64,000 nt of DNA from an uncultured Gemmatimonadales bacterium (GCA_963851265.1 CAWKNZ010000007.1:256001-320000), one strand, 5' to 3'; shown: positions 2 to 64,000, numbered from the stretch's first letter. The notes: generated from the sequence alone by a model not told the origin. Made by a program: numbers and translations.

Positions 2-1360
2 GCGCACGCCGCGCCGGCGCCCCAGGCGACCCCGGGATCCACCGCGGCGCTGACCGGCGCCGCGGTGCCGTCGGTCGCGCATCCCGCCTGGTCGCGCAAC
101 GCGAACATCTACGAGGTGAACGTCCGGCAGTACACGCCGGAGGGAACGCTCGCCGCCATCCGCCCGCACCTGGCGCGTCTGCAGCACCTCGGCGTCGACA
201 TCCTGTGGTTCATGCCCGTGCAACCGATCGGCAAGAAGAACCGCAAGGGGCGACTCGGCTCGTACTACTCCATCGCCGACTACCGCGCGATCAACCCCGA
301 GTTCGGGACGACCGCCGACTTTCGCGCACTCGTCGCGGACGCGCACCGGCTCGGGATGAAGGTGCTGCTCGACTGGGTGCCCAACCACACGGCGTTCGAT
401 CATCCGTGGATCACGCAGCACCCCGACTGGTACGTGCACCGCGCGGACGGCTCGATCATGAATGCCCGCGACAACGAGAACCACGAGACCGACTGGACCG
501 ACGTCGCGGAGTTGAATTACGACAACGCCGACCTCCGGCGCGCGATGCTCGCGGACATGCGGTACTGGCTCGACTCCGCGGGGGTGGACGGGTTTCGCTG
601 CGACGTGGCGGGCGGGGTGCCCGACGATTTCTGGGCGCACGCGCGCGCGACGTTGGGCGCGGCGCACCCGGGCCTATTCATGCTCGCCGAGGCCGAGTCG
701 CCGTCGATGCACGCGTCGTTCGACATGACGTACGGCTGGCAGCTCTACGACCTGCTCGTGGCGGTGTCGCAGGGGAAGCAGTCGCCGGCCGCGATTGACC
801 GGTACCTCGCCGCCCAGGACAGCACGTACCCGGCCGACGCGTACCGGATGTACTTCACCGTCAACCACGACAAGAACAGCTGGGACGGGACCGAGTTCGA
901 GCGGATGGGGCCGAACAACACGCCGAGCTACATCCTGAGCGCGACCCTGCGGAACTCGATGCCACTGCTGTACACGGGGCAGGAGGTCAGCAACCCGAAG
1001 CGGCTGCGTTTCTTCGAGCGGGACACGGTGGACTGGCGCGGGCCGTCGCGCGCGGCGTTCTACCGCGCGGTGTTCGCGCTGAAGCACGCGCAGCCGGCGC
1101 TGGCCAACGGGGCGGCCGGCGGGGTGCAGCAGAAGCTCGCGACGGACGACACGGCGCACGTGTACGCGTTCACGCGCACGCGGGGGGCGAATACGGTGCT
1201 CGTGGCGGTGAATTATGGAGACGCCGCCGTGCGGGTGCCGTACCGCGGGCTGGCGCGGGGCGGGGCGTATACGGACTGGTTCGCCGGGACGCGAGTGAGG
1301 TTAGGCGAGCGCGGGGTCCTCGCGGTGCCGGCGCACGGGTATCGGGTGTTGGTGCGGTAG
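2..1360 (+). CDS. GH13 alpha-amylase family glycosidase (5' end probably outside window)
   Basis: IYEVNVRQYT, DWVPNHT, GVDGFRCDVA (nucleophile), MLAEAE, NHD motifs; frame is open back to position 2. Confidence 0.9.
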   Translation, partial: AHAAPAPQATPGSTAALTGAAVPSVAHPAWSRNANIYEVNVRQYTPEGTLAAIRPHLARLQHLGVDILWFMPVQPIGKKNRKGRLGSYYSIADYRAINPEFGTTADFRALVADAHRLGMKVLLDWVPNHTAFDHPWITQHPDWYVHRADGSIMNARDNENHETDWTDVAELNYDNADLRRAMLADMRYWLDSAGVDGFRCDVAGGVPDDFWAHARATLGAAHPGLFMLAEAESPSMHASFDMTYGWQLYDLLVAVSQGKQSPAAIDRYLAAQDSTYPADAYRMYFTVNHDKNSWDGTEFERMGPNNTPSYILSATLRNSMPLLYTGQEVSNPKRLRFFERDTVDWRGPSRAAFYRAVFALKHAQPALANGAAGGVQQKLATDDTAHVYAFTRTRGANTVLVAVNYGDAAVRVPYRGLARGGAYTDWFAGTRVRLGERGVLAVPAHGYRVLVR

Positions 1361-1414
1361 CAAGGCTGGGCGGACGCTGTGGAGCGTCAAGCCTGACGCC
1401 AACGCCGGGACCGG

Positions 1415-1462
1415 TGGACCCCCGCTTCCGCGGGGGCGAACCCCCGCTTACGCGGGGGCGAC
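1415..1462. repeat. Two tandem REP-like palindromes between convergent genes
   Basis: TGGACCCCCGC-TTCC-GCGGGGGCGAA followed directly by CCCCCGC-TTAC-GCGGGGGCGAC. Confidence 0.75.
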
Positions 1463-1504
1463 AGCGCCAGAGATCGCCGCGCCCCCCGGTCGCGCCACGC
1501 CGCG

Positions 1505-2905
1505 TTACACCGCCCCCGCCGTATCCAGCTGCCCTCTCCCCGGCGCCAACTTCACGAACAGCGTCGCCACCGCCGCACAGATCAGCAGCGCCCCCGCGAG
1601 CCGGATCACGTTGTCCGGCGTGCCGCCGAGCAGCGAGTGATAGATCAGCGGCAGCGTGAAGATCTGCACCATCATCGGGATCACGATGAACATGTTGAAG
1701 ATCCCCATGTACACTCCCACCCGCTCCTGCGGGATGCTGCCGGCGAGCATGACGTACGGGTTGCCCATGATGCTGGCCCACGCGAGCCCGATGCCGATCA
1801 TCGGGACGAAGAGCAGGCCGCGGTCGGTGATGCCGGGGAGGGCCCACATCGCGAGGCCGGCGAGCGTGAGGCAGGTCGCGTGCGTGATCTTCGGCCCGAG
1901 GCGCCGCGTGAACGGGACCATCGCGAACGCGGCCGCGAAGGCGACGGCGTTGTAGAAGCCGCCGAGCTGGCCGTAGAAGAGGTTCGCGTCGCGGAAGGCG
2001 GGCGTGGTCGCGTCGTGCGTGTGGAACACCGTCGCCGCGATCGAGAGGACCACGTACTGCCAGTAGCAGAACATCGCGTACCACTGGAACAGCTTCATCA
2101 CCGCGAGCTGCCGCATCGTCGTCGGCATCTCGCGCACGGCGGCGCCGACCTCGGTGAACGCGGCGCCGAGCCCGCGCGGCATCGCCTCGATGCGCGCGCG
2201 CTCGTCGGCCGACAGCGGCAGCTCGGGCGTCGTGCGCACCGTCCAGAGGATCGACGCGAGCGAGAACACCGAGCCGATGAGGAACGCGCCGACCGTGACG
2301 TACGGGATGCCGCGCGCGTTGGTCGCGTCGCTGTTCATCCCGAGCCGCACGGCGAGGCCGGCGAGCAGCGACGGCGTCACGTAGGACAGCGTCTGGCCGA
2401 GCCCCGTGAAGGCGCTCTGCGTGAGGAAGCCGATCGAGTGCTGCGTGGGGTCGAGCCGGTCGGAGACGAAGGCGCGGTACGGCTCCATCGTCACGTTGTT
2501 GCCGGCGTCGAGGATCCAGAGCAGCCCCGCCGCCGCCCAGATGGCCGGGCTGAACGGCATGAGCAGCAGGGCGATGCTGCAGAGGACCGCGCCGACCAGG
2601 AAGTACGGCGTACGCCGCCCGCGCGAGCTGAGCGTGCGGTCGCTCATCGCGCCGATGATCGGCTGCACGAGCAGGCCGGTCATGGGCCCGGCGAGCCAGA
2701 GGAAGGGCAGGCTCGCCTCGTCCGCGCCGAGGTAGCGGTAGATGGGGCTCATGTTGGCCTGCTGCAGTCCGAAGCTGTACTGGATTCCGAAGAACCCGAA
2801 GTTCATGCTCAGGATCTGCGCGAACGAGAGCTGCGGGCGTCGCGCGGCGCGCACGCCGGGGGCGGCGCGGGCGGCGCTCGGGAGCGCGGCGGTGGTCGTC
2901 GCCAT
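1505..2905 (-). CDS. MFS sugar transporter (SLC45/MalT-like, sucrose/maltose type)
   Basis: MNFGFFGIQYSFGLQ, GLLVQPIIGAMSDRT, GRRTPYF, MEPYRAFVSD, GVYMGIFNMFIVIP; about 12 hydrophobic segments; ATG 2905 chosen as start. Confidence 0.9.
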   Translation of the reverse strand: MATTTAALPSAARAAPGVRAARRPQLSFAQILSMNFGFFGIQYSFGLQQANMSPIYRYLGADEASLPFLWLAGPMTGLLVQPIIGAMSDRTLSSRGRRTPYFLVGAVLCSIALLLMPFSPAIWAAAGLLWILDAGNNVTMEPYRAFVSDRLDPTQHSIGFLTQSAFTGLGQTLSYVTPSLLAGLAVRLGMNSDATNARGIPYVTVGAFLIGSVFSLASILWTVRTTPELPLSADERARIEAMPRGLGAAFTEVGAAVREMPTTMRQLAVMKLFQWYAMFCYWQYVVLSIAATVFHTHDATTPAFRDANLFYGQLGGFYNAVAFAAAFAMVPFTRRLGPKITHATCLTLAGLAMWALPGITDRGLLFVPMIGIGLAWASIMGNPYVMLAGSIPQERVGVYMGIFNMFIVIPMMVQIFTLPLIYHSLLGGTPDNVIRLAGALLICAAVATLFVKLAPGRGQLDTAGAV

Positions 2906-3048: not shown

Positions 3049-4203
3049 GTGACCGCACCCGCCTCGTCTCTCGCCGCCGACCCCGCGGTCGCGCTACTCC
3101 GCGCGCTGAGCGGCCCCGCCGGCATTCACGCGTCGCTCTCCGACACGGCGAACTACCGCGCCGTGTTCGCGCGCGACGGTGTGATGGCGGGCATCGCGGG
3201 GCTGCTGCTCGGCGACGCGACGGTCACCGCGGGCCTCGTCCGCACGCTCGAACAGCTGCGCGACCTGCAAGGCGCCGAGGGGCAGATCGCGTCCAACTAC
3301 GAGGTGCGTGACGGCGCGCCGCCCCACGTGAGCTTCGGCACCGTCGTGCCGCGCGTCGACTCGGCGACGTGGTACCTCGTGGGCGTCGCGCTCGCGGCGC
3401 GCGAGGGCGCGGTCGACCCGGCGGCGTTCGCGGCGTCGGTGCGCGCGACGGTGCGGCTGCTCGACGCGCTCGAGTACAACGGGCGCGACCTCGTCTACGT
3501 GCCGGCCGGCGGGAACTGGGCCGACGAGTACCTCACCGAGGGCTACATCCTCTACGACCAGGTGCTGCGCGCGTGGGGGCTGCGGTTGTTAGGCACGACG
3601 TACGGCGAGCCGGCGTGGGGCGAGAAGGCCGAGCGAGTCGGCGCGCGAATCGCGGAGCGGTTCTGGCCCGACGCCGACGCCGGCCGACGGTACCCGCTCG
3701 CGTCGTACACGCCGATCGCCGTGCGCGACGTGTTCGACCTCGCGGCCGCCGCGCTGCTCGGCGTCGCGGGCGTGGCCGGGGCGGAGGCGGTGACGGCGCG
3801 CGCGCTCGACTACGCGGTGGACGCGTTCCTCGCCCGCGACGTGCTCCCGCCCGCGTTCAGCCCGGTGATCGAGGAGGGCGACGCGGACTGGCCGGCGCTC
3901 CGCCGGTACCACCTCTACGCGTTCCGCAACCGCCCGCACGAGTATCACAACGGCGGCGTGTGGCCGATCTGGCTCGGCTGGCTCGCGCTCGCGCTCGCGC
4001 GCACGGGGCGGCCCCGCGACCTCGCGCGCCTGCGCGCGCTCGTCGCCGACCGGGTCGCGGCACACCCCGCGTACGCGTTCGACGAGTACCTGCACGGCGT
4101 GACGTCCACGCCCGGAGGCACGACGCGGATGGCGTACAGCGCGACGGGGTTCGTCTTCCTGCAACTCGCCGATACGAGCGCCGCGGCGCGGGTGCTCGCG
4201 TGA
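3049..4203 (+). CDS. (alpha/alpha)6 glycoside hydrolase, GH100/amylo-alpha-1,6-glucosidase-like
   Basis: NYRAVFARDG, GQIASN, GGNWADE, YDQVL, PHEYHNGGVWP, FDEYLHG, AYSATG; GTG start at 3049. Confidence 0.75.
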   Translation: MTAPASSLAADPAVALLRALSGPAGIHASLSDTANYRAVFARDGVMAGIAGLLLGDATVTAGLVRTLEQLRDLQGAEGQIASNYEVRDGAPPHVSFGTVVPRVDSATWYLVGVALAAREGAVDPAAFAASVRATVRLLDALEYNGRDLVYVPAGGNWADEYLTEGYILYDQVLRAWGLRLLGTTYGEPAWGEKAERVGARIAERFWPDADAGRRYPLASYTPIAVRDVFDLAAAALLGVAGVAGAEAVTARALDYAVDAFLARDVLPPAFSPVIEEGDADWPALRRYHLYAFRNRPHEYHNGGVWPIWLGWLALALARTGRPRDLARLRALVADRVAAHPAYAFDEYLHGVTSTPGGTTRMAYSATGFVFLQLADTSAAARVLA

Positions 4204-4981: not shown

Positions 4982-6700
4982 ATGCTTCGATCATCATTTC
5001 GCGGCGCCCTCGGCCTCGCCGCCGTCCTCGCGCTCGCGACGGCGGGCTGCCGTCCGGCCGCGCTCGCGACCGCGCCGACGCCGGCCCTCGCCGCGTACGA
5101 CCCCGCGCGCGACCTCGGCCCGCTGTTTCAGGACGTGGAGACGGCGGGGATCTTCCCCGACTCGAAGACGTTCGTCGACGCGCGCGCCCTCGCGACCCCG
5201 GGCGACATCGCGGCGCGCTACGCCGCCGAGCGGGGGCGGCCCGGGTTCGACCTGCGGGCGTTCGTCGCGCGCGAGTTCGCGCTGCCGCAGAGCGCCGGCG
5301 CCGTCGCGCCGGACAGCGCGGCGACGATGGAAGCGCACATCCGCGCGCTGTGGCCCGCGCTCACGCGCCCGGCCGACGTGCCCGACCCGCGCTCCTCGCT
5401 CATCGCGCTGCCCAACCCGTACGTGGTGCCCGGCGGACGCTTCCGCGAGGTGTACTACTGGGACTCGTATTTCACGATGCTCGGCCTCGTGGAGAGCGGG
5501 CGCACGGACCTGATGCGCGACATGCTCGACAACTTCGCGTACGAGGTCCGCACGTTAGGCCACATTCCGAACGGCAACCGCACCTACTACCTGGGCCGCA
5601 GCCAGCCGCCGTTCTTCGCGGCGATGGTCGGGCTGTATGCGCAGGCGACCGACACGGGGCAGGCGCTCCGCTACCTCGACGCGCTCGAAGCCGAGCACGC
5701 GTTCTGGATGGACGGGGCCGACCGCCTCGCGCCCGGGACGGCGCACCGACGCCTGGTGCGGCTGCGCGACGGACGCCTGCTCAACCGGTACTGGGACGAC
5801 GTGCCGGCGCCGCGGCCCGAGTCGTTTCGTGAGGATTTCCAGCTCGGGCAGACCGTGCCGGCGGAGCGACGCGAGGCGTTCTACCGCAACGCGCGCGCGG
5901 GTGCGGAGAGTGGCTGGGACTATTCGAGTCGCTGGATGCGCGACCCGCACGACCTGCGGACGCTCGAGGTGATCGACCTCGTCCCGGTGGACCTCAACAG
6001 CGTGCTCTACCATGCCGAGCGGACGATCGCCGCGCTGCGGCGGTTCCGGGGGCGGGCGGGGGACGCGGGGGTCGCGGCGCGGTACGCGGAGGTGGCGGAG
6101 ACGCGGCGGCGCGCGCTCGTGTCGGCCGCGTACGACCCGGCGACCGGGTTCTTCTACGACGTGCGCTGGCGCACGGGCGAGCGGGTGACGGACCGGCCGA
6201 CGCTCGCGGCGGCCGCGCCGCTCTACTTCGGCCTCGCGACCCCGGAGCAGGGGCGCGCGGTGGCCGACCGGCTCGGGCGGGACTTCCTGAGGTCGGGCGG
6301 GTTCGTGACGACCCTCGTCGCGTCGGGGCAGCAGTGGGACGCGCCTAACGGGTGGCCGCCGCTGCAGTGGCTGGCGATGGAGGGGGTGCGGCGGTACGGC
6401 CGCGCGGGGCTCGCCGACACGGCGCGCGGGCGGTGGCTCGCGCTCAACCGGCGGACGTACGCGGCGACGAAGAAGATGACGGAGAAGTACGACGTCGTCG
6501 ACGCGGCGCGGCGGGCCGGCGGGGGCGAATACCCGACCCAGGACGGGTTCGGGTGGACGAACGGGGTCGCGCTGGCGCTCGCCGCGCAGGAGCGGGCGGC
6601 GGGAGGTGCGCGGGCGGACGGTGCCCCGGCGGACGGCGGCGACGTGCGCACGCCCGCGCCCGGGCCGGCGCGGGCCAACCCGGCGCCGTCGCATCGGTAG
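4982..6700 (+). CDS. treA: alpha,alpha-trehalase (GH37), probable lipoprotein
   Basis: DSKTFVD, PGGRFREVYYWDSY, RSQPP, PRPES, AESGWDYSSRW, QQWDAPNGWPP, GGGEYPTQDGFGWTNG; lipobox-like LATAGC. Confidence 0.95.
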   Translation: MLRSSFRGALGLAAVLALATAGCRPAALATAPTPALAAYDPARDLGPLFQDVETAGIFPDSKTFVDARALATPGDIAARYAAERGRPGFDLRAFVAREFALPQSAGAVAPDSAATMEAHIRALWPALTRPADVPDPRSSLIALPNPYVVPGGRFREVYYWDSYFTMLGLVESGRTDLMRDMLDNFAYEVRTLGHIPNGNRTYYLGRSQPPFFAAMVGLYAQATDTGQALRYLDALEAEHAFWMDGADRLAPGTAHRRLVRLRDGRLLNRYWDDVPAPRPESFREDFQLGQTVPAERREAFYRNARAGAESGWDYSSRWMRDPHDLRTLEVIDLVPVDLNSVLYHAERTIAALRRFRGRAGDAGVAARYAEVAETRRRALVSAAYDPATGFFYDVRWRTGERVTDRPTLAAAAPLYFGLATPEQGRAVADRLGRDFLRSGGFVTTLVASGQQWDAPNGWPPLQWLAMEGVRRYGRAGLADTARGRWLALNRRTYAATKKMTEKYDVVDAARRAGGGEYPTQDGFGWTNGVALALAAQERAAGGARADGAPADGGDVRTPAPGPARANPAPSHR

Positions 6701-6836: not shown

Positions 6837-8246
6837 ATGGCCCGACCACGGCTGAACCTCCGGCAGCTGTTCAACATGAGCGTCGGATTCCTCGGCATCC
6901 AGTTCGGGTGGGGGCTCCAGCTCGCGAACATGTCGGCCGTGTACGAGCGGCTCGGGGCGAAGACGGACCAGATTCCGGGGCTGTGGCTCGCCGCGCCGCT
7001 CACCGGACTGCTCGTGCAGCCGGTCATCGGCGCGCTGAGCGACCGCACGTGGGGTCCGCTCGGGCGGCGGCGTCCGTACTTCCTCGCCGGCGCGGTGCTC
7101 GCGTCGATCGGGCTGTTTCTGATGCCGACGTCCGGGAGCATCTGGATGGCGGCGGGGCTGCTCTGGGTACTCGACGCGTCGATCAACATCTCGATGGAGC
7201 CGTTCCGCGCGTTCGTGGCCGACAAGCTGGACGCGTCGCAGCGGACGGCGGGCTTCGTCATGCAGTCCTTCATGATCGGCATCGGCGCGAGCCTCGCCAA
7301 CGCGCTGCCCTACGTGTTAGGCCGGTTCGGGGTCGCCGGGAGCACGGCGAGCGGGATCCCGCTGTCCGTGAAGTACGCGTTCCAGGCCGGCGCCGTGGTC
7401 TACCTGCTCGCGGTGATCTGGACGGTGGTCACGACCGGCGAAGACCCGCCCGCGGACATGGCCGCCTTCGAGCGCGAGCGGCAGCAGCGGCGCGGCGTCG
7501 GGCCGCTCGTCGCGGAGATCGCGGAGGCCGTGCGCGAGATGCCGGCGACGATGAAGCAGCTCGCCCTCGTGCAGTTCATCACGTGGATGGGGCTGTTCTG
7601 CATGTGGCTCTACTTCGTGCCCGCGGTGGCGCGGCACGTCTTCGGCGCCACCGACCCCGCCTCGCAGCTGTACGAGGACGGCGCGAAGTGGGGCGGGCTG
7701 GTGTTCGCGTTCTACTCGATCACCTGCTTCGCGGTGGCATTCGCGTTGCCCAAGCTCGCCGCCGCGACCAGTCGCAAGGCGGTGCACGCCGGGGCGCTCG
7801 TGTGCGGCGCGCTCGGGCTGCTGAGCGTCGGCGTGATCCACTCGCCCAACCTGCTGATCCTCTCGATGGTGGGCGTGGGGGTGGCCTGGGCGTCGATCCT
7901 CTCGATGCCGTACGCGATTCTCGCGTCGGCGCTGCCGCCGGCCCGGCTCGGGGTGTACATGGGCGTGTTCAACTTCTTCATCGTGCTGCCCGAGATCGTG
8001 GCGGCGCTGTTCTTCGGGCGGCTGTCGCGCGCGCTGTTCGGCGACGGCAACCCGAGCGCGCCGTTGTACTTCGTGATCATCGGCGGTGGGTGCATGCTCG
8101 CCGCCGCCGCGTGCGTGGCGCTCGTGCAGGACGTGGGCGAGCGCGAGCCGGCCGGCGCGGCCGTGCTCGCCGCCGACGCGCACGAAGCGTTGCTGGTGCA
8201 GGGGTCGGTGCAGCCCGTGCCGAGCACGGGCGCGTCGCCCCGGTAG
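6837..8246 (+). CDS. MFS sugar transporter (second SLC45/MalT-like paralogue)
   Basis: MSVGFLGIQFGWGLQ, GLLVQPVIGALSDRTW, GRRRPYF, MEPFRAFVAD, GVYMGVFNFFIVLP; GAGG upstream of ATG 6837. Confidence 0.9.
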   Translation: MARPRLNLRQLFNMSVGFLGIQFGWGLQLANMSAVYERLGAKTDQIPGLWLAAPLTGLLVQPVIGALSDRTWGPLGRRRPYFLAGAVLASIGLFLMPTSGSIWMAAGLLWVLDASINISMEPFRAFVADKLDASQRTAGFVMQSFMIGIGASLANALPYVLGRFGVAGSTASGIPLSVKYAFQAGAVVYLLAVIWTVVTTGEDPPADMAAFERERQQRRGVGPLVAEIAEAVREMPATMKQLALVQFITWMGLFCMWLYFVPAVARHVFGATDPASQLYEDGAKWGGLVFAFYSITCFAVAFALPKLAAATSRKAVHAGALVCGALGLLSVGVIHSPNLLILSMVGVGVAWASILSMPYAILASALPPARLGVYMGVFNFFIVLPEIVAALFFGRLSRALFGDGNPSAPLYFVIIGGGCMLAAAACVALVQDVGEREPAGAAVLAADAHEALLVQGSVQPVPSTGASPR

Positions 8247-8333
8247 ACCCGTGGGCCCGGCCCGGGAGGGCCGGTCGGGTGCTGGTCCGGGACTTTCGTT
8301 AGGCTCGCCGCTCACTCTTCCGCTTCCGCCGCG

Positions 8334-9605: not shown

Positions 9606-9606
9606 G

Positions 9607-10833
9607 ATGCGCATCGCGCTCCTCACCAACGAGTACCCGCCCAACGTCTACGGCGGTGCGGGCGTGCACGTCGACTATCTGTCGCGCGAGCTCGCCCGCG
9701 CCGAGGGCGGCGCGAACCAGGTCGACGTGCACTGCTTCGGCGACCAGCACGAGGACCGCGGCAACCTGCGCGTGCGCGGCGTCGCGCCGGTCACGCTGCC
9801 GGTGCAGGACCCGCGGCACGCGCGGCTGCTCGACGCATTCGGCCGCGACCTCGCGATGGCGGGGGCAGTAGTCGCGGCCGAGGTGGTGCACTGCCATACC
9901 TGGTATGCCGCGCTCGCCGGCCTCGTCGCGAAGCCGCTCGCGGGCGCGAAGCTCGTGCTCACGACGCACTCGCTCGAGCCGCACCGGCCGTGGAAGGTCG
10001 AGCAGTTGGGGAGCGCGTACCACGCGTCGGTCTGGGTGGAGCGCACCGCGTACCAGAACGCCGACGGCGTGATCGCCGTGTCGGAGGCGATGAAGGCCGA
10101 CGTGCAGGAACTGTACGGCGTCGCGCCGGAGCGGGTGCGCGTGATTCACAACGGCATCGACCCCGACGAGTACCGCCCGAGTCCGTCGGCCGAGACGCTG
10201 CGGCGCGTGGGCGTGAACCCGGACGTGCCGTTCGTCCTGTTCGTCGGGCGGATCACGCGGCAGAAGGGGATCCTCCACCTCGTGCGGGCGATCCGGCAGT
10301 TCCAGGTCGGGCCCGACGGGCTGCAGGTCGTGCTCTGCGCGGGCGCGCCCGACACCCCCGAGATCGCGGCCGAGATGACGGCGCTGGTGGCGGAGGTGCA
10401 GCGGGACGCCGCGGCCGAGATCGTCTGGATTCCGGCGATGCTGCCCAAGCCCGACGTGATCGCGCTCTACAGCGAGGCCGCGGTGTTCGTGTGCCCGTCG
10501 GTGTACGAGCCGTTCGGGATCATCAACCTCGAAGCCATGGCGTGCGAGACGCCGGTGGTCGCGTCGGCGGTCGGCGGGATCCCGGAGATCGTCGTGCCGG
10601 GTGAGACCGGCCTGCTCGTGCCGTTCGAGGCCGCGGGCGGGGAGTCGCCGGAGCCGCGCGACCCCGAGGCGTTCTCGGCCGCGCTCGCGGCCGCGGTCAA
10701 CGAGTTGATGGCCGATCCCGCCCGCCGGACCGCGATGGGGCGGGCGGCGCGCGAGCGCGTGCTCGCGCAGTTCAGCTGGCGGCGGATCGCCGAGATCACG
10801 CTCGCGTTCTACCGAGAGCTGGTGCAGCGTTAG
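9607..10833 (+). CDS. glgA: GT4 glycosyltransferase of the actinobacterial GlgA/GlgM type (maltose-1-phosphate synthase-like)
   Basis: LLTNEYPPNVYGGAGVHV, HCHTWY, THSLEPHRPWKVEQLG, FVGRITRQKG, CPSVYEPFGIINLEAMAC. Confidence 0.9.
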   Translation: MRIALLTNEYPPNVYGGAGVHVDYLSRELARAEGGANQVDVHCFGDQHEDRGNLRVRGVAPVTLPVQDPRHARLLDAFGRDLAMAGAVVAAEVVHCHTWYAALAGLVAKPLAGAKLVLTTHSLEPHRPWKVEQLGSAYHASVWVERTAYQNADGVIAVSEAMKADVQELYGVAPERVRVIHNGIDPDEYRPSPSAETLRRVGVNPDVPFVLFVGRITRQKGILHLVRAIRQFQVGPDGLQVVLCAGAPDTPEIAAEMTALVAEVQRDAAAEIVWIPAMLPKPDVIALYSEAAVFVCPSVYEPFGIINLEAMACETPVVASAVGGIPEIVVPGETGLLVPFEAAGGESPEPRDPEAFSAALAAAVNELMADPARRTAMGRAARERVLAQFSWRRIAEITLAFYRELVQR

Positions 10834-10841
10834 GCGATTCG

Positions 10842-20062: not shown

Positions 20063-20121
20063 GGTCATCCAGCGCCCGGCCCACGCCGCGGTCGAACTCG
20101 CCGGCCGCCGTCGCCGGCTCG

Positions 20122-21075: not shown

Positions 21076-21389
21076 GGGCGGCGGGGCGAAAGCCGGAGCA
21101 GCGGGCGAACCGCGGGGTGTATTGTTCACCGGGGGCGGATCGCACGCAACGCGCCGCTCGACGCGCCCGGCTGCCCCCGCCCCGACATGGGAAACGCGAC
21201 GACGTCGTCCCGCCGTCCGCTGTCCGGGCGCGACGTCCCAACGCTGGCCCACGGTTCACACGCGAACCCGGCCGCGATCGAATCGACTGCGGGGTGCGCT
21301 CGGCTCTGACGCTGCACGCGTCTTGCCACTACGCACGGCGTCCACAACGCCCATCTCACCGCGCCCATCCGGCGCAGGAGCGCTCCCCC

Positions 21390-23249: not shown

Positions 23250-23340
23250 CGCGGCGCGTGGGCGCGGGCCGGCCGGGCGTGGTCGACGTCACGGCGGCCC
23301 GCGCCGGCGGGGGCGCCGGCGGGCGCGTTAGGTTGCCGGC

Positions 23341-24366: not shown

Positions 24367-24387
24367 CCGCGCGGCCCGACGAACGGC

Positions 24388-50321: not shown

Positions 50322-51776
50322 TCAGCGCGCGTGGAGTGTCACGCGCACGCCGCCCACCGGACGGAGCGTGACCGCGCCGTGCGGCCTGGGTTCCGCGCCG
50401 GGCACGAGACGCACGGCCCACCGGCTCGCCAGCGTCGCGAGGACCAGCGTGGCCTCCGTCCAGGCGAACTGCTCGCCGATGCAGATGCGCGAGCCGCCGC
50501 CGAACGGGAAATAGGCGAACCGGGGGCGCGCGGCGGCCTCCTCCGGGTCGAGCCAGCGCTCCGGGCGGAAGCGCGCCGCCTCCGGCCACCAGCGCGGGTC
50601 GTGGTGCGCGAGCCACGGCGACGTCAGCACGCCCCACCGCGGCTCCACCGCGTAACCGCCTAACGTGGTGCGCTCCACGCACATCCGCCCGATCGCGTAC
50701 GCGGGCGGAAAGAGGCGCATGCTCTCGGCGATCACCGCCCGCGCGTACGGCAGCGCCGCCAGGTCGTCCATCGACGGCGCCCGCCGGGCGGCACCGGTCC
50801 CGAGCACCGCGTCGAGCTCGCCCTGTAGCCGCGCGGCGGCGTCGCGGTTCTGCGCGAGGAGGTACCACGTCCAGCTCAGCGCCGATGCCGTCGTTTCGTG
50901 GCCCGCGAGGAATATCGTCATCGCCTCGTCGCGCAGCTCGTCGTCGCCGAGGGCGGTTCCGGCCGCGCCGCCCGCCGACACGTCGGCGCCGGGCGCGTCC
51001 TCGTCGTCGCGCGCGGCGAGCAGCATCGAGAGCAGGTCGCCCCGGTCCGCGGGTTCGCCGCGCGCCGCCGCCGCCCGACGCTCCGCGATCATTCCGAACA
51101 CCACGCGGTCGAGCCGCCGGCGGGCGGTTCGGAACCGTCGCGCGAGCGGGATCGGCAGGCGCATCGCCCACTTCCCGAACGGGAGGAACGCGAGCGGGGC
51201 CGCGTGAAGCGCGTCGCCGAGCGCGTCGGCCACCTCGGCCGCACTCCCGCCGACGTCGACGCCGAACAAGGTCTCGCCGGCGATGCCGAGCGTGAGGGCC
51301 ATCATCTCGGCCGCGACGTCGATCGGCGCCGTCCGGTCCGCGCGCGCGCGCCACCGCGCGTCCCACGCCTCGGCCGCCGCGACCATCGTTCGTGAGTAGC
51401 CGACGACGCGCTCGCGATGGAAGGCGGGCTGCGCCATGCGCCGGTGCCGCCGGTGGTGCTCGCCCTCGCTCGTGAGCAAACCCTCGCCCAGGAACAGCTT
51501 GAGCCCGCGATGCGCGTACCCGCGCGCGAAGCGCTTCTGCTGGGTGACGAGCACCTCGCGCGCGAGCTCCGGGTGCCCGACGACGACGAACGTCCTGCCG
51601 AGCGCGCGCACCCGCACGACATCGCCGTGCGCGGCGTGCAGCGCGCGCACCGTGCCGAGCGGGTCGCGCGCGAGCGCGACGCCCCACGCGCCCGGCCACG
51701 GCGCGCGGACCAATGGCGGGTAGGGTGCCACGGCCGGGGTCGGCACCGGGGCCTCGGGAAGGGCGATGGTCGTCAT
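50322..51776 (-). CDS. Cytochrome P450
   Basis: AGHETT, ESMR (ExxR), FRPERW, FGGGSRICIG haem motif; ATG 51776. Confidence 0.95.
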   Translation of the reverse strand: MTTIALPEAPVPTPAVAPYPPLVRAPWPGAWGVALARDPLGTVRALHAAHGDVVRVRALGRTFVVVGHPELAREVLVTQQKRFARGYAHRGLKLFLGEGLLTSEGEHHRRHRRMAQPAFHRERVVGYSRTMVAAAEAWDARWRARADRTAPIDVAAEMMALTLGIAGETLFGVDVGGSAAEVADALGDALHAAPLAFLPFGKWAMRLPIPLARRFRTARRRLDRVVFGMIAERRAAAARGEPADRGDLLSMLLAARDDEDAPGADVSAGGAAGTALGDDELRDEAMTIFLAGHETTASALSWTWYLLAQNRDAAARLQGELDAVLGTGAARRAPSMDDLAALPYARAVIAESMRLFPPAYAIGRMCVERTTLGGYAVEPRWGVLTSPWLAHHDPRWWPEAARFRPERWLDPEEAAARPRFAYFPFGGGSRICIGEQFAWTEATLVLATLASRWAVRLVPGAEPRPHGAVTLRPVGGVRVTLHAR

Positions 51777-51958: not shown

Positions 51959-52618
51959 ATGTCGATCCGTGAACAGATCCTCGACGCGGCCACGCGCGTC
52001 TACGCCGAGCACGGATTCCGCGGTGCGACCACGCGGCGCATCGCCGACGCGGCCGGCGTGAACGAGGTCACGCTCTTTCGCACGTTCGGCTCGAAAGCGT
52101 TGCTGATCGAGGCGGCGCTGCGTCATATCGGCGCCGTCGATGCGTCGGCGCCACACGCCCTGCCCGACGTCCCGCGCGACCCGGAGCGCGAACTCTTCGC
52201 CTGGGCCGCCGAGCAGCTCGACGACCTCCGCAGCAGACGGTTTCTCATCCGGCACGCGATGAACGATTTCGAGCGCCGCCCCGACGCCGCGTGCGCGGCG
52301 CAGGGGTGGAACGCGGCCGACGTCGAACTGCACCGCTACCTCGTGCGCCTCGGCGAGCACGGTTTCGTCGCCTGGGACGCGGCCGGCACCGACGAACGCG
52401 CGTCGCCGGTCGCACCCGACTCACGGCGCGAGGACGTGCTCGCCGCGGCGGCGATGTTCATGGCCGCGCTGTTCAGCGACGCGATGGGGCGCGACATGAT
52501 GCCGCACCTCTACCCGCAGCCCGCCGACCGGGCCCCCGCCCTCTACGTCCGCCTGTTCCTGCGCGCGCTCGACTGCGCCGGCTCACGCCCCGCCCCGTCC
52601 TCGACCGAGGCAGCCTAA
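51959..52618 (+). CDS. TetR/AcrR family regulator
   Basis: ILDAATRVYAEHGFRGATTRRIADAAGVNEVTLFRTFGSK. Confidence 0.95.
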   Translation: MSIREQILDAATRVYAEHGFRGATTRRIADAAGVNEVTLFRTFGSKALLIEAALRHIGAVDASAPHALPDVPRDPERELFAWAAEQLDDLRSRRFLIRHAMNDFERRPDAACAAQGWNAADVELHRYLVRLGEHGFVAWDAAGTDERASPVAPDSRREDVLAAAAMFMAALFSDAMGRDMMPHLYPQPADRAPALYVRLFLRALDCAGSRPAPSSTEAA

Positions 52619-52622
52619 CCGA

Positions 52623-57722: not shown

Positions 57723-59290
57723 GCGCCCGGACGCGCCGCGTCGCGGCGCTGTGCTGCGCGGCACTCACCGGCGCGTGCGAGACGGGTGCGACGCACGGCA
57801 CGTCGGGCGACGGGTCTGCGCGTGACGGCGCGTCCGCGGCCGGCGTCGCGACCGCGCACGCGCTCCCGGCGCCAGCCGCACCGACCACCGTGAGCGAGCA
57901 GACGTTGCGCTTCGACGCGTTCGGCACGGTGCACGTGCTGCACGCCGGCGCGGGCGCACTCGCCGGCAGCGCGCCCGCACGCACGGTCGTCTTCGCCGCC
58001 GGCGACGGTGGATGGGATACGGCCGCGGCGTCGGTCGCACGTCGCATCGCGGCGAGCGGCGACGTGCTCGTCATCGGTGTCGACGGCGCCGCGTACCGGC
58101 GGCGCGAGATGCGCGGGCGCGGCTGCGCATCGCCGGCCGGCGACTTCGAGGCGGTGAGTCAGTACACGCAGCACCGTCTCGGCCTCGCGCGCTACACGCC
58201 GCCGGTGCTCGTCGGCCAGGCGGCGGCGGGCGCGCTCGCGTACGCCACGCTCGCCGGAGCGCCCCGGGGCACGTTCCCCGGCGCGATCGCGCTCGGGCTC
58301 TGCCCCGGCGCCACCGCGCCGAAGGCGTTCTGCGCCGCGTCCCGCCGCCAGACGTTAGGCGCGCGCCGCGGCGCCGGTTACGCCCTGACGCCCGACACGA
58401 CGCTCCGTCTCCCGGTGACGATCCTCCGCCCCGCCGACGAGCCGGCCGCGTGTTCCGCGGCGGACGTGGAGCGGTTCGCGCGCGCGATGCCGGGCGCCGA
58501 GGTGGTGGCCGTGCCGGGCGGCGTCGATTTCGCCGGCGACGGCTGGCTGCCCGCGTTCACGCGCGCCCTCGCGCGCGCCGCACCGGCCGCGCCGCGAGCC
58601 GTGGTCACGCCCTCGGCCGCCCCCGCGGGCGCGAACGTCGCCGACCTGCCGCTCGTCCAGATCGCGCCCGCCGCCAACGCCGCGGGGCCGTCCGACCTGG
58701 TCGCGGTCGTGCTCTCGGGCGACGGCGGCTGGGCGAGCATCGACCGCGAGGTCGGCGAGACGCTCGCGTCCGACGGCGTTCCGGTGGTGGGGCTCAACAC
58801 GCTGCAGTACTTCTGGACGCCGCGGAACCCCGACGGCGCCGCCGCCGACCTCGCCCGCATCGTCGCGCACGCGACCACCTCGCCGCCCGGCGGCGGCACA
58901 CGGCGGCGCGTCGTCCTCGTCGGCTACTCGCGCGGCGCCGACGTGCTGCCGTTCATGGCGCGCCGCCTTCCGCCGGAGTTGCGCGCCCGCGTCGCGGAGG
59001 TCGCGCTGCTCGGCCTCGAGACGTCGATCGCCTTCGAGTTCCACGTCAGCGACTGGCTCGGCGGCTCGGCGCCTAACGAGCGCCCCACCATCCCCGAGGT
59101 CGCCGCGCTCCGCGCCGCGCTGCCCGTCGCCGTGCCCGTGGTCTGCCTGTACGGCACGGGCGAGGACGACAGCGCGTGCCCCGCGGCGGCGCGCCAGGCC
59201 GGCGCACGCGCGATCGCCATGCCCGGCGGACACCACCTCGGCGGCGACTATCCCGCACTCGCGCGGCAGATCCTCGCGGCGCTGCGCTGA
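57719..59290 (+). CDS. AcvB/VirJ family aminoacyl-phosphatidylglycerol hydrolase-like protein
   Basis: GDGGW twice, DLPLV, LSGDGGWASID, LQYFW, LVGYSRGA, FEFHVSDWL, PGGHH; lipobox-like TGAC. Confidence 0.88.
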   Translation: MSARTRRVAALCCAALTGACETGATHGTSGDGSARDGASAAGVATAHALPAPAAPTTVSEQTLRFDAFGTVHVLHAGAGALAGSAPARTVVFAAGDGGWDTAAASVARRIAASGDVLVIGVDGAAYRRREMRGRGCASPAGDFEAVSQYTQHRLGLARYTPPVLVGQAAAGALAYATLAGAPRGTFPGAIALGLCPGATAPKAFCAASRRQTLGARRGAGYALTPDTTLRLPVTILRPADEPAACSAADVERFARAMPGAEVVAVPGGVDFAGDGWLPAFTRALARAAPAAPRAVVTPSAAPAGANVADLPLVQIAPAANAAGPSDLVAVVLSGDGGWASIDREVGETLASDGVPVVGLNTLQYFWTPRNPDGAAADLARIVAHATTSPPGGGTRRRVVLVGYSRGADVLPFMARRLPPELRARVAEVALLGLETSIAFEFHVSDWLGGSAPNERPTIPEVAALRAALPVAVPVVCLYGTGEDDSACPAAARQAGARAIAMPGGHHLGGDYPALARQILAALR

Positions 59291-63101: not shown

Positions 63102-63193
63102 AGCGGGGGTGAGTTGTGGCCGGGCTTCGTTTGGCCGCGGCCGGATCGTGTCCGGGTGGCCGGTCTTGCCCCTCGCGGGTACGTTCTCCACCT

Positions 63194-63234
63194 TTACCGA
63201 ACGCTGTTCGTCGTCGGTTACCGAACAACGTTCG
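63194..63234 (+). promoter_or_regulatory. Tandem palindromic operator upstream of the acyl-CoA dehydrogenase
   Basis: TTACCGAAC-GCT-GTTCG and TTACCGAAC-AAC-GTTCG, period 24 bp. Confidence 0.65.
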
Positions 63235-63277
63235 CCGCGCGCGATCGTCACGTCTCGCACCCGAGAACCCCGCCCCG

Positions 63278-64000
63278 ATGCCGACCTACAAGGCCCCACT
63301 CGACGACGTCCGCTTCCTGCTCAACGACGTGCTCGCCGTCGAGGAGCTGAGCAAGCTCCCCGGCTACGAGGAGGCGACCCCGGACCTGCTGCTCGCCGTG
63401 CTCGAGGAGGGAGGCACGCTGTGTGAGGACGTGCTCCAGCCGATCAACCAGAGCGGCGACGCCGAGGGGTGCCGGATCGAGGGCGGGCAGGTGTTCACGC
63501 CGACGGGGTTCAAGGAGGCGTACGCCGAGTTCGTGCAGGGCGGCTGGCCGGCGATGACCGGCGACCCCGCGTACGGCGGCCAGGGGCTGCCGCACCTGAC
63601 GCGCTTCATCTTCGACGAGTTTCTCTGCTCGGCCAACCTGTCGTTCTCGATGTACCCGGAGCTCGGGCACGGGGCGGCGATGACGCTCGAAAAGTGGGGG
63701 GATGCGGCGCTCAAGGACCGCTTCCTCGCCAAGATGACAGACGGCACGTGGGGCGGGACGATGTGCCTCACGGAGGCGCACGCGGGCACCGACCTGGGCA
63801 TGATCCGCACGAAGGCCGTCCCCGCCGGCGACGGCTCCTACGTGCTGACCGGGCAGAAGATCTTCATCTCGGCCGGCGACCACGACCTCGCCGAAAACAT
63901 CTGCCACCTCGTGCTGGCCAAGCTGCCCGACGCCCCGGCCGGCACGCGCGGCATCTCGATGTTCCTCGTGCCCAAGTTCGTGCCTAACGAGGACGGCACG
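63278..64000 (+). CDS. Acyl-CoA dehydrogenase (runs off the window; absent from the ORF track)
   Basis: MPTYKAPLDDVRFLL, GDAEGC, YGGQGLP, GTMCLTEAHAGTDLG, GQKIFISAGDHD, GTRGISMFLVPKF. Confidence 0.95.
   Translation, partial: MPTYKAPLDDVRFLLNDVLAVEELSKLPGYEEATPDLLLAVLEEGGTLCEDVLQPINQSGDAEGCRIEGGQVFTPTGFKEAYAEFVQGGWPAMTGDPAYGGQGLPHLTRFIFDEFLCSANLSFSMYPELGHGAAMTLEKWGDAALKDRFLAKMTDGTWGGTMCLTEAHAGTDLGMIRTKAVPAGDGSYVLTGQKIFISAGDHDLAENICHLVLAKLPDAPAGTRGISMFLVPKFVPNEDGT

What the first reader, a model, noticed from the sequence alone, without database searches (positions are those of the whole stretch)
1300..63988. Dispersed, frame-independent heptamer GTTAGGC/GCCTAAC: a candidate undescribed genome-wide DNA signal
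Seen: 26 exact copies found by eye. GTTAGGC at 1300, 3588, 5554, 7316, 8298, 10829, 16422, 24929, 35838, 42071, 58354; GCCTAAC at 6343, 13310, 24386, 27556, 31615, 32749, 34357, 40727, 45429, 47807, 49817, 50658, 52613, 59071, 63982. Twenty-one extend to CGTTAGGC. A base-composition estimate at about 75% GC gives roughly 5 copies, and TTA/TAA are otherwise scarce here, so a higher-order model should expect fewer. The motif is read as Leu(TTA)-Gly, Pro(CCT)-Asn, Arg-Leu(CTA)-Thr, Arg-stop(TAG) and Ala-stop(TAA), and it also occurs intergenically. It appears at conserved peptides (Kdp[11 protein letters not shown], trehalase WDAPNG) through rare synonymous codons. Most TTA codons I noticed lie in it (an exception is near 21996). 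Inference: selection acts on the DNA, not on the protein. The 11:15 orientation split argues against a strongly polar Chi/KOPS signal. Better analogies are DNA uptake sequences, cyanobacterial HIP1, a methylation or repair-biased site, or a nucleoid-protein site. It also matches the integron core consensus GTTRRRY.
Basis: partly seen in the sequence, partly recalled or inferred. Interest (0 to 1): 0.85.

Follow-up and report, generated by a model that had tools for sequence, protein, structure and literature searches.

The report
Genome-wide DNA word GTTAGGC, reader unknown
This soil bacterium and about a third of its family write the exact DNA word (C)GTTAGGC into genes, stop codons and spacers roughly twenty times more often than chance, which most resembles the "self tags" that Neisseria and Haemophilus use when taking up DNA, although what reads the word is still unknown.

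Summary
All 26 copies are at the stated places (2.07 expected), and 21 carry a preceding C. Genome-wide there are 1762 copies. It is the top-ranked 7-mer, and CGTTAGGC the top 8-mer.

A synonymous-codon shuffle expects 75 coding copies against 1303 seen. The word is strand-symmetric and shows no replication polarity. It fills each permitted frame roughly in proportion to dipeptide supply, and it is over-represented in spacers and at stop codons.

Copies avoid each other within about 500 bp. Density rises 3.8-fold with gene GC3. Copies turn over between species but are kept more often than control words.

Of 151 family genomes, 46 are enriched and 91 poor. Outside the family, 1 of 119 is enriched.

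The word equals the R box of the order's own integron attC sites, but integrase presence is unrelated to enrichment. Vsr, common DNA methylases, pilin clusters, PilQ and ComEC do not explain it either.

Best reading: a DNA-uptake-like transfer tag spread by molecular drive (about 0.45). This scan reported the same word at least nine times before.

The parts
1300..1306 (+). word copy, Leu-Gly frame (AGG TTA GGC), base before is G
3588..3594 (+). word copy, Leu-Gly frame, base before is T
5554..5560 (+). word copy CGTTAGGC, Leu-Gly frame inside trehalase gene (4982-6697)
6343..6349 (-). word copy on the antisense strand of trehalase; gene strand reads G CCT AAC (Pro-Asn)
7316..7322 (+). word copy, Leu-Gly frame in MFS transporter gene (6837-8243), base before is T
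8298..8304 (+). intergenic copy CGTTAGGC between ORFs ending 8243 and starting 8334
10829..10835 (+). copy supplying the TAG stop of the glycosyltransferase ORF 9607-10830
13310..13316 (-). word copy, Leu-Gly frame in amidohydrolase ORF (13121-14278, -)
16422..16428 (+). word copy, Leu-Gly frame in cyanophycin-synthetase-like ORF (15295-18189)
24386..24392 (-). copy supplying the TAG stop of ORF 24391-25137 (-)
24929..24935 (+). antisense copy in ORF 24391-25137 (-); gene strand reads xGC CTA ACx
27556..27562 (-). word copy, Leu-Gly frame in KdpD-domain ORF (27310-28512, -)
31615..31621 (-). word copy, ACG TTA GGC (Thr-Leu-Gly) in KdpB (30469-32679, -)
32749..32755 (-). word copy, Leu-Gly frame in KdpA (32707-34428, -)
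34357..34363 (-). word copy, Leu-Gly frame in KdpA
35838..35844 (+). antisense copy (Pro-Asn frame) in histidine-kinase ORF (34773-36443, -)
40727..40733 (-). word copy, Leu-Gly frame in peptidase S9 ORF (40265-42670, -)
42071..42077 (+). antisense copy (Pro-Asn frame) in the same ORF, base before is G
45429..45435 (-). word copy, Leu-Gly frame in ORF 43671-47045 (-)
47807..47813 (-). word copy, Leu-Gly frame in ORF 47105-50314 (-)
49817..49823 (-). word copy, Leu-Gly frame in ORF 47105-50314 (-)
50658..50664 (-). word copy, Leu-Gly frame in ORF 50325-51776 (-)
52613..52619 (-). copy whose + strand GCC TAA C supplies the TAA stop of ORF 51959-52615 (+), base before is G
58354..58360 (+). word copy, Leu-Gly frame in ORF 57719-59287 (+)
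59071..59077 (-). antisense copy (Pro-Asn frame) in ORF 57719-59287 (+)
63982..63988 (-). antisense copy (Pro-Asn frame) in an ORF that runs off the window end

Best explanation
(C/T)GTTAGGC is a double-stranded DNA tag that some protein reads during exchange of DNA fragments between related cells. The most likely route is biased uptake in natural transformation, as with the DUS of Neisseriaceae and the USS of Pasteurellaceae. Fragments that carry the word would be taken up and recombined more often, so word-bearing alleles spread (molecular drive, with or without selection). They spread until about one copy per recombining segment exists, wherever the protein code allows it through synonymous or near-synonymous spellings.

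Shown here: the word is a DNA-level, strand-symmetric, sharply defined signal that is actively maintained, with the spacing and distribution this model predicts.

For: Size of the excess: 1762 copies against 96-160 expected. In coding DNA, 1303 copies against 75.2 +/- 7.6 after synonymous shuffling that keeps the inflated TTA count.

DNA-level and symmetric:
- The base before the word is C in 78-80% of sense, antisense and intergenic copies alike.
- Intergenic copies between co-directional genes lie with them 79 times and against them 72 times.
- In enriched family genomes, forward and reverse totals are 42547 and 42449.
- In a 475-kb stretch of G004 on one presumed replichore, Leu-Gly use is 108/776 in + genes and 69/586 in - genes. 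Pro-Asn use is 20/136 and 11/79. Intergenic copies are 17 and 14.

Coding fit: use per available site is 7.8% for Leu-Gly, 16.9% after Ala/Pro/Thr/Ser, and 10.7% for Pro-Asn. Frame bias therefore largely follows dipeptide supply, as published for uptake sequences (PMC2817400 and PMC2346458, abstracts read).

Spacers and gene ends hold 460 of 1762 copies in 11% of the genome.

Short-range repulsion: among Leu-Gly copies, 0 pairs lie closer than 100 bp against 30.7 +/- 6.2 simulated. For closer than 200 bp the figures are 6 against 59.7, and for closer than 500 bp, 58 against 137.6. G012 also shows it: 19 against 54 below 100 bp, CV 0.81. This matches the published point that a second close DUS adds nothing and that DUS spacing tracks conversion-tract length (PMC2397512, section 7 read).

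Density rises from 0.14 to 0.53 copies per kb across gene GC3 octiles, as expected if copies build up with residence time or recombination.

Conservation with turnover: in 304.7 kb aligned between G000 and G004, 62 copies are shared, 43 are G000-only and 116 are G004-only. 58% of G000 copies are kept, against 15-40% for five control heptamers.

Uptake hardware is present: ComEC in 21 of 21 genomes, a PilQ-like secretin in 148 of 151, and PilA-like and minor-pilin ORFs.
Against: - No uptake experiment exists, and I found no paper that links this phylum with uptake sequences (0 papers).
- The uptake genes I tested are just as present in word-poor genomes, so they do not explain the pattern.
- Only 46 of 151 family genomes are enriched at 2-fold or more over the control. 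Samples of two word-poor genomes (G006 400 kb, G118 162 kb) and of the weakly enriched G027 (200 kb) show no alternative dispersed word. DUS and USS, by contrast, occur family-wide with dialects (DUS dialects: PMC3630211, abstract seen in a search listing; the family-wide spread of DUS and USS is recalled).
- No reader was found. The C9 accessory minor-pilin protein, the C3 cluster protein and the C7 orphan pilin show no link with enrichment.
- Exact identity with the integron R box is left unexplained by this model alone.
- The largest word-free stretches are housekeeping regions, not mobile islands.
- Gene calls are my own crude ORF predictions.
Confidence: 0.45

Rival explanations
1. The word is a binding site for an unknown resident DNA-binding protein, for example one that organises the nucleoid, loads repair factors or marks DNA as self against a nuclease. 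Selection would keep about one site per kilobase-scale segment, with no role for DNA uptake.
For: The word is exact, strand-symmetric and evenly spaced at short range. It is conserved above control words. It is found in genes, spacers and stop codons alike. Copy number varies continuously between genera, as would fit a factor that is gained, lost or differently expressed.
Against: - No candidate protein was found.
- Repulsion out to about 500 bp is far beyond steric exclusion.
- The 3.8-fold rise with gene GC3 and the heavy turnover between congeners fit a drive better than a fixed architectural need.
- Related genomes with 6-40 copies do well without it.
- A word-free zone around gidA-parAB in G000 is not reproduced in G012, G060 or G051.
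Confidence: 0.2
2. The word is read by the integron system. The genome-wide copies would be R boxes recognised by the integron integrase or a relative, for example as landing sites for gene cassettes (attG-like). Alternatively, the copies accumulated through some integrase-linked process.
For: - The word fits GTTRRRY/RYYYAAC (consensus from PMC12901181, passages read). It is the actual R'/R'' box of attC sites in G015, G013 and G017 and in G000 itself. There, two 97-nt hairpins, GCCTAACG...CGTTAGGC, fold with z = -3.8 and z = -6.4.
- The side preferences also match. The base before the word is C 79% and T 13% genome-wide, against C before R' and T before the reverse complement of R'' in G015.
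- The only one-off variant that carries the flank signature is GTTGGGC. G012 tolerates T at the last base. Both fall within the consensus.
- Integron cassettes can insert at genomic attG sites (stated in PMC12614218, passages read).
Against: - A full-length integrase (best E at most 1e-100) is present in 26 of 46 enriched and 48 of 91 poor genomes. Among high-quality genomes the figures are 21/35 and 42/70, with Spearman 0.002.
- The integrase is split in G000, a fragment in G001, frameshifted in G012 and not found in G008.
- About 99% of copies stand alone, without an L box or hairpin. Only 8 R''-R' pairs at 66-149 bp were seen among 1762 copies.
- No known integrase reaction multiplies its own site inside conserved genes.
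Confidence: 0.12
3. The word accumulates through a sequence-specific modification or mismatch-repair bias. This would resemble cyanobacterial HIP1 with its cognate methylases, or very-short-patch repair, which converts near-matches into the word.
For: - The distribution among relatives is patchy and graded, as I recall for HIP1.
- GCCTAAC has the form of MmeI-type asymmetric methylase sites (recalled, not tested).
- G000 encodes an Eco57I/MmeI-like 1141-aa protein next to an SNF2 helicase.
- One specific neighbour, GTTGGGC, is enriched 2.5-fold and carries the flank signature.
Against: - Vsr (PF03852) was found in 0 of 7 enriched genomes among 21 searched.
- G000 has no PF00145 and no PF01555 match. 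Its other PF02384 matches are frameshifted fragments.
- The Eco57I-like protein is core, present in 145 of 151 genomes whatever their word count.
- A repair bias does not predict repulsion between copies.
- The word is not palindromic.
Confidence: 0.08
4. The word is a polar recombination or translocation signal of the Chi or KOPS kind, read on one strand by AddAB or FtsK.
For: It is the most over-represented octamer in the genome. G000 has an AddAB-like pair of PD-(D/E)XK nuclease domains at C3:244.5-249 kb.
Against: - There is no strand polarity once gene orientation is controlled. Forward and reverse totals are equal.
- The excess is larger than the Chi excess in E. coli as I recall it.
- RecC was not found.
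- Word-poor relatives show no substitute word.
Confidence: 0.03

Closest known systems
DNA uptake sequences: DUS of Neisseriaceae and USS of Pasteurellaceae
   Same: - A short exact word occurs in thousands of copies, far above expectation. N. meningitidis carries about 1900 DUS in 2.2 Mb (PMC2397512, Table 1 read). Here there are 1762 in 4.6 Mb, and up to 6360 in G012.
- Both orientations are used.
- The word is written into genes in the frames that encode common peptides, and it is enriched outside genes.
- Close pairs are rare.
- Copies are conserved more than background.
   Different: - The word is shorter here (7-8 bp against 9-12 bp).
- 74% of copies lie within ORFs, against 34-42% for DUS (same table).
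- Terminator-like inverted pairs are rare.
- Only 46 of 151 family genomes are enriched, and no dialects were seen.
- One-off variants are nearly absent except GTTGGGC, whereas Neisseria has about 800 DUS-1 (Table 1).
- Uptake bias is untested and there is no receptor candidate.
- The word coincides with the integron R box.
Integron recombination core: R' (GTTRRRY) and R'' (RYYYAAC) boxes of attC and attI
   Same: The sequence is identical, flanking preference included. This genome and its order carry attC arrays built on this very word.
   Different: About 99% of copies are isolated, lie inside housekeeping genes and lack the paired L box and hairpin. Abundance is unrelated to the presence of an integrase gene.
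HIP1 (highly iterated palindrome) of cyanobacteria
   Same: It is a hyper-abundant octamer imposed on coding sequence, with strongly varying abundance among relatives and no settled function (recalled).
   Different: HIP1 is palindromic and has been linked to cognate methylases (recalled). This word is asymmetric, and G000 lacks the common methylase families tested.
Chi (crossover hotspot instigator) and KOPS
   Same: Both are over-represented octamers read by DNA-processing machines. An AddAB-like nuclease is present in G000.
   Different: Those signals are co-oriented with replication. This word is not.

Membership tests
DNA uptake sequence (DUS/USS) | Short exact word present hundreds to thousands of times, far above model expectation | tested here: met
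   1762 copies against 96-160 expected. It has the top z among 7-mers and 8-mers. In coding DNA, 1303 copies against 75.2 after synonymous shuffling.
DNA uptake sequence (DUS/USS) | Both orientations about equally common, with no replication polarity | tested here: met
   Forward and reverse totals are 42547 and 42449. Saturation is similar in + and - strand genes on one presumed replichore of G004. G000 agrees, with low power.
DNA uptake sequence (DUS/USS) | Competent cells take up word-bearing DNA in preference to other DNA | not testable with these tools
   This needs an uptake or transformation competition assay in a cultured word-rich strain.
DNA uptake sequence (DUS/USS) | Type IV pilus and DNA translocation genes present | tested here: met
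   ComEC in 21 of 21 genomes, a PilQ-like secretin in 148 of 151, and pilin-like ORFs in G000. These are equally present in word-poor genomes, so the result is permissive only.
DNA uptake sequence (DUS/USS) | A dedicated receptor that co-occurs with the word (ComP in Neisseria) | tested here: inconclusive
   Three pilin-cluster proteins were tested by presence, and none tracks enrichment. Differences in specificity within conserved pilins could not be tested.
DNA uptake sequence (DUS/USS) | Shared by the whole family, with dialects between genera | tested here: not met
   46 of 151 genomes are enriched and 91 are poor. No other dispersed word appears in samples of G006, G118 or G027.
DNA uptake sequence (DUS/USS) | Spacing consistent with one tag per recombining fragment (few close pairs) | tested here: met
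   Pairs closer than 200 bp: 6 seen against 59.7 +/- 8.5 simulated. G012 and G004 show the same trend.
Integron attC / attI site | R box fitting GTTRRRY / RYYYAAC | tested here: met
   The sequence fits directly. The consensus is taken from PMC12901181 (passages read).
Integron attC / attI site | Paired R''-L''...L'-R' imperfect hairpin, or an L box with direct repeats beside the R box | tested here: not met
   Only 8 R''-R' pairs at 66-149 bp were seen among 1762 copies. Five of these were folded and all pair their R boxes, two of them with z of -3.8 or lower. The remaining copies stand alone in genes.
Integron attC / attI site | Occurrence tied to an integron integrase | tested here: not met
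   A full-length IntI is present in 26/46 enriched and 48/91 poor genomes.
HIP1-type iterated word | Palindromic word with a cognate DNA methylase | tested here: not met
   The word is asymmetric. G000 has no PF00145 or PF01555 match, and Vsr is found in 0 of 7 enriched genomes.
Chi / KOPS | Co-orientation with replication | tested here: not met

The most novel reading that the evidence does not exclude
The tag was copied from the integron. Under this reading, a DNA-exchange step in these lineages, most likely uptake, reads the very 8-mer that forms the R box of attC sites. Cassette arrays, which carry two copies per roughly 0.55 kb, would then be the best-tagged DNA in the environment. The chromosome would have drifted toward the same word by molecular drive. 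This would couple natural transformation directly to cassette capture. It would also scatter about 1800 ready-made attG-type landing sites across the chromosome.
Probability: 0.12. Interest if true: 0.9.

Novelty: new variant of a known kind. Interest (0 to 1): 0.7.

Why it matters
To my knowledge (recalled), sequence tags for DNA uptake are established in only two proteobacterial families. A comparable genome-wide tag in Gemmatimonadota, an abundant and little-cultured soil phylum, would have several consequences:

- It would point to sequence-selective gene exchange in soil bacteria.
- It would give a simple marker for telling native from foreign DNA in these genomes and in metagenome bins.
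- The identity of the word with the integron R box raises a testable link between DNA uptake and cassette capture. This is timely because transformation was recently shown to feed cassettes to a chromosomal integron in Vibrio cholerae (PMC12614218, abstract read).

Tried and rejected
1. Replichore polarity: 50-kb bins show none. Local orientation follows gene strand (r = 0.61).
2. 'All + strand' runs in search listings for G004, G059 and others: this is only the order in which the listing prints rows. The fetched DNA has both strands.
3. Integrase as reader or as antagonist: a negative trend in the first 21 genomes vanished in 151 genomes.
4. Vsr-type repair: not found in enriched genomes.
5. 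ComEC and PilQ: present almost everywhere.
6. Accessory minor-pilin cluster C9: a +,+,+,-,- pattern in five genomes did not hold in 151. Poor genomes G005, G043 and G120 have strong full-length matches. Enriched G001, G004 and G008 have weak ones.
7. The C3 cluster protein and the C7 orphan pilin: no pattern.
8. Eco57I/MmeI-like methylase-domain protein: core, present in 145 of 151 genomes.
9. Dialect switch: the top words in G118 and G027 are tandem heptamer arrays, not dispersed words.
10. Within-genus contrast G118 against G060/G160: these share only 67-75% DNA identity, so the contrast says nothing about speed of gain.
11. Exclusion from the origin region: the 45-kb word-free stretch holds gidA, parAB and mnmE, but G012, G060 and G051 have normal density there.
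12. Depletion in mobile islands: the two largest gaps I annotated are housekeeping DNA. Only the GC3 gradient supports a nativeness effect.
13. Recent-transfer signature: flanks of shared copies are 84.4% identical against 81.35% background, a small difference.
14. Off-frame stop ('ambush') and translation-level readings: rejected, because they do not require the full 8-mer or the antisense and intergenic copies.
15. A literature search for the bare word returned mostly primer hits.

Full report
**Observation**

Dinucleotide-preserving shuffles give 2.07 +/- 1.57 copies. Twenty-one copies have C before the word.

The window is G000:C7:256001-320000, in a 4.6-Mb, 73% G+C genome of 12 contigs. 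Genome-wide there are 1762 copies, against 96-160 expected from Markov models of order 1-3. The expectation rises to 1047 and 1722 only at orders 4 and 5, because the inner 5- and 6-mers are themselves almost confined to the word. GTTAGGC is the highest-scoring 7-mer, and CGTTAGGC (1396 seen, 50 expected) the highest-scoring 8-mer.

The base before the word is C in 79% and T in 13% of copies. The base after it is rarely T (4%). Nothing further out is conserved.

**DNA or protein?**

I called genes myself from open frames scored by codon usage. This gave 3766 ORFs covering 89% of the genome. The calls are crude and are not an annotation.

| Class of copy | Copies |
|---|---|
| xxG TTA GGC (Leu-Gly) | 1003 |
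| xxG CCT AAC on the other strand (Pro-Asn) | 201 |
| xGC CTA ACx | 73 |
| GTT AGG C | 24 |
| Straddling an ORF end | 193 |
| Intergenic | 267 |
| Other (one copy in the TAG-stop frame inside a called ORF) | 1 |

The remaining two frames contain TAG or TAA, and the word is used at gene ends accordingly. 126 of 443 TAA stops and 84 of 751 TAG stops lie in the word. In 15 convergent gene pairs it supplies both stops at once.

The strong Leu-Gly excess mostly reflects supply. The word occupies 7.8% of all Leu-Gly sites, and 16.9% when Ala, Pro, Thr or Ser precedes. It occupies 10.7% of Pro-Asn sites. In G004 the two figures are 12-14% and 14-15%. The other two frames are used less (3.9% and 0.7%).

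A shuffle of synonymous codons within each ORF keeps the inflated TTA count. It still expects only 75.2 +/- 7.6 coding copies against 1303 observed, and 42 against 1041 for the 8-mer. TTA is followed by GGC in 1012 of 1306 cases. The genome has a tRNA-Leu(UAA).

The C before the word is equally frequent in sense, antisense and intergenic copies. In the Leu-Gly frame this C fixes the preceding amino acid. Intergenic copies show no preferred orientation relative to neighbouring genes. The constraint is therefore on double-stranded DNA.

**Polarity**

Orientation in 50-kb bins follows gene strand (r = 0.61) and shows no replichore pattern.

In strongly gene-biased regions of G000, Leu-Gly use is 7.5% in majority-strand genes and 5.5% in minority-strand genes. 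Pro-Asn use in majority-strand genes is 7.4%.

In G004, a 475-kb stretch lies 0.5-1.0 Mb to one side of parB on a 3-Mb contig. I assume, but did not prove, that this stretch belongs to one replichore. There the figures are 108/776 and 69/586 for Leu-Gly, 20/136 and 11/79 for Pro-Asn, and 17 and 14 intergenic copies. Summed over enriched family genomes, the two strands carry 42547 and 42449 copies. A Chi- or KOPS-like polar signal is rejected.

**Fine structure**

Only one one-off variant behaves like the word. GTTGGGC is 2.5-fold over the shuffle. In the TTG-GGC frame, its preceding codon ends in G in 94% of cases and is xCG in 52%, against about 55% and 22% for other Leu codons. It is also the second commonest alternative allele between species. 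GCTAGGC shows no such signature.

In G012 the last base is C in 70% and T in 17% of CGTTAGG copies.

**Spacing**

Copies avoid each other. I simulated Leu-Gly copies placed at random Leu-Gly sites, weighted by the GC3 class of the gene, and compared the counts of close pairs.

| Pair distance | Observed | Simulated |
|---|---|---|
| under 100 bp | 0 | 30.7 +/- 6.2 |
| under 200 bp | 6 | 59.7 +/- 8.5 |
| under 500 bp | 58 | 137.6 +/- 13 |
| under 1000 bp | 187 | 242 +/- 19 |

G012, which has one copy per 0.7 kb, shows the same at a shorter range: 19 against 54 below 100 bp, with CV 0.81. G004 shows 20 against 36 below 200 bp. The G001, G051 and G060 samples are too small to tell.

**Where the word is dense**

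Density rises steadily with gene GC3, from 0.14 to 0.53 copies per kb. Leu-Gly use rises from 3.1% to 13.8%.

The largest word-free stretch (45 kb, C1:182876-227962) holds gidA, parA, parB and mnmE. The second largest holds infC-rpmI-rplT-pheST. Neither is a mobile island. The parB region is also sparse in G001 and G004 but normal in G012, G060 and G051. I treat this as a local feature of the genus.

**Evolution**

In 304.7 kb aligned between G000 and its congener G004 (background identity 81.35%):

- 62 copies are shared, 43 are G000-only and 116 are G004-only.
- 58% of G000 copies are conserved, against 15-40% for five control heptamers.
- The other allele is most often the ordinary GCTCGGC (28 cases), then GTTGGGC (14 cases).
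- Flanks of shared copies are slightly more conserved (84.4 +/- 0.8%). The window alone gave 12 shared, 8 window-only and 24 G004-only.

**Distribution**

I scanned 151 genomes from 77 genera of the family and compared the 8-mer count with that of its reversed spelling.

- 46 genomes have a ratio of at least 2, and 14 of these exceed 10. G012 has up to 6360 copies.
- 91 genomes have a ratio below 0.5, and 14 lie between.
- At genus level, 25 genera are consistently enriched, 40 are poor and 12 are mixed.

Outside the family, 1 of 119 genomes from 11 other families reaches a ratio of 2.5 (G275). These tallies include unpublished genomes: G011, G045, G046 and G144 in the family scans, and G203 and G232 in the phylum scan. 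No conclusion depends on them individually.

Samples of poor genomes show no substitute dispersed word: G006 (400 kb) and G118 (162 kb). G027 (200 kb) has weak enrichment of the same word, 17 copies against 1.2 expected. The apparent alternative words in G118 and G027 are tandem heptamer arrays.

The family name Gemmatimonadaceae comes from earlier notes of this scan. I did not test it.

**The integron link**

Non-enriched genomes of sister families carry contigs with the word every 0.5-0.6 kb. In G015:C95 these are attC sites: GCCTAAC, about 80 nt of imperfect inverted repeat, then cGTTAGGC.

G000 has its own attC sites. Five were folded and all pair their R boxes; two 97-nt sites have z = -3.8 and z = -6.4. 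It also has a cassette array at C10:186-206 kb with 22 copies in 20 kb, and a split integrase at C6.

The word is thus the R box of the local integrons, including the C before R'. It fits the published consensus GTTRRRY/RYYYAAC (PMC12901181, passages read). Integrons are reported from Gemmatimonadota (PMC8618304, passage read).

Three results argue against the integrase as reader:

- Only 8 R''-R' pairs at attC-like distance exist among 1762 copies.
- A full-length integrase is found in 26 of 46 enriched and 48 of 91 poor genomes. Among high-quality genomes the figures are 21/35 and 42/70, with Spearman 0.002.
- The integrase is split in G000, a fragment in G001, frameshifted in G012 and not found in G008.

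The integrase therefore neither explains nor excludes the word. The identity is too exact to dismiss. I estimate a chance match at roughly 1e-4 per known motif. The identity remains unexplained.

**Search for a reader**

- Vsr: 0 of 7 enriched genomes, and 2 of 14 others.
- ComEC: 21 of 21.
- PilQ-like secretin: 148 of 151.
- G000 has two PilA-like genes, two minor-pilin clusters and one orphan pilin. The 375-aa protein of the C9 cluster looked promising in five genomes but failed in 151. The C3 protein and the orphan pilin show no pattern.
- G000 has no PF01555 or PF00145 methylase, and only frameshifted PF02384 fragments besides the Eco57I/MmeI-like protein below.
- An Eco57I/MmeI-like 1141-aa protein sits beside an SNF2 helicase, but it is present in 145 of 151 genomes.
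- RecC was not found. An AddAB-like pair of nuclease domains is present.

Presence or absence of these genes therefore does not track the word. Differences in specificity inside conserved proteins could not be tested.

**Reading**

The following features together match DNA uptake sequences best:

- size of the excess
- strand symmetry
- use of all permitted frames, the two main ones in proportion to supply
- excess in spacers
- sharpness of the word
- repulsion between copies
- increase with gene GC3
- conservation with turnover

A published analysis of DUS (PMC2397512, sections 7 and 9 read) reports that close DUS pairs add nothing. It also reports that DUS spacing matches conversion-tract length and that DUS arise through recombination. 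Abstracts of PMC2817400 and PMC2346458 report the frame and orientation bias of uptake sequences in genes.

Three points argue against membership: the patchy distribution without dialects, the lack of any discriminating competence gene, and the absence of any uptake experiment.

On prior description, no paper in the library holds both 'Gemmatimonad' and 'DNA uptake sequence'. None of the 9 papers holding 'Gemmatimonad', 'natural transformation' and 'competence' concerns such a word, judged by title and abstract start. One of these, PMC7305173, I read in passages.

I put the uptake-like transfer tag at 0.45. The rivals are a resident binding site at 0.2, an integron-linked reading at 0.12, a modification or repair bias at 0.08, and a polar signal at 0.03.

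A recent paper shows that natural transformation feeds cassettes to the chromosomal integron of Vibrio cholerae, and it mentions cassette insertion at genomic attG sites (PMC12614218, abstract and passages read). This makes a link between an uptake tag and the attC R box worth testing.

**Earlier work in this scan**

The same word was reported at least eight times on other pieces of this genome and once on another genome, each time as uptake-sequence-like with an unknown reader.

- the family-wide null test for the integrase
- the negative results for Vsr, methylases, pilin clusters, PilQ and ComEC
- the simulated spacing test
- the GC3 gradient
- the polarity test on G004
- the 305-kb turnover count
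- the phylum-wide scan

Noticed in passing
G000:C6:3005-6044 (locus L151): The integron integrase of this genome is split. HMM positions 2-265 map to C6:5244-6044 and positions 260-313 to C6:3005-3166, about 2 kb apart, which suggests an insertion. An attC-like site lies at C6:1592-1708.
   Followed up: partly
G000:C10:186001-206000 (locus L152): This is a cassette array with no integrase match on this contig. It has 22 copies of the word in 20 kb, including four folded attC sites and a run of solo R' boxes about 1 kb apart.
   Followed up: partly
G118 loci L097-L106; G027 loci L107-L116: Short tandem arrays of heptamers, (AAAGCAG)n in G118 and (GCGGGAA)n in G027, often occur as an inverted pair of arrays 100-200 bp apart. 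They are scattered over many contigs. Their nature is unknown.
   Followed up: no
G000:C7:582089-585511 (locus L179:6086-9511, -): An Eco57I/MmeI-like methylase-domain protein of 1141 aa sits beside an SNF2-type helicase. It is conserved in 145 of 151 family genomes at 46-78% identity. Most orthologous matches carry one in-frame TGA or TAG. This is unusual for a restriction-type enzyme.
   Followed up: partly
G000 genome-wide: In 15 convergent gene pairs a single copy of the word supplies both stop codons: TAG for one gene and TAA for the gene on the other strand.
   Followed up: no
G000:C1:182876-227962: This is the largest word-free stretch (45 kb). It contains gidA, parA, parB and mnmE, so it is probably near the replication origin. 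The region is also word-sparse in congeners G001 and G004, but not in G012, G060 or G051.
   Followed up: yes
window 20000-24000: Cumulative GC skew peaks here, and gene orientation changes from mostly + to mostly -. The orientation of the word changes with it.
   Followed up: partly
G008 loci L006, L087-L096: Besides 26 copies of CGTTAGGC, the variant CGTTTGGC occurs 53 times against 10.3 expected in 220 kb. It could be codon-driven or a weak second word.
   Followed up: no
G000:C7:771474-772495 and G000:C9:923-1858: Two N6_Mtase (PF02384) loci are broken into 4-5 pieces in different frames. Both lie at contig ends.
   Followed up: no
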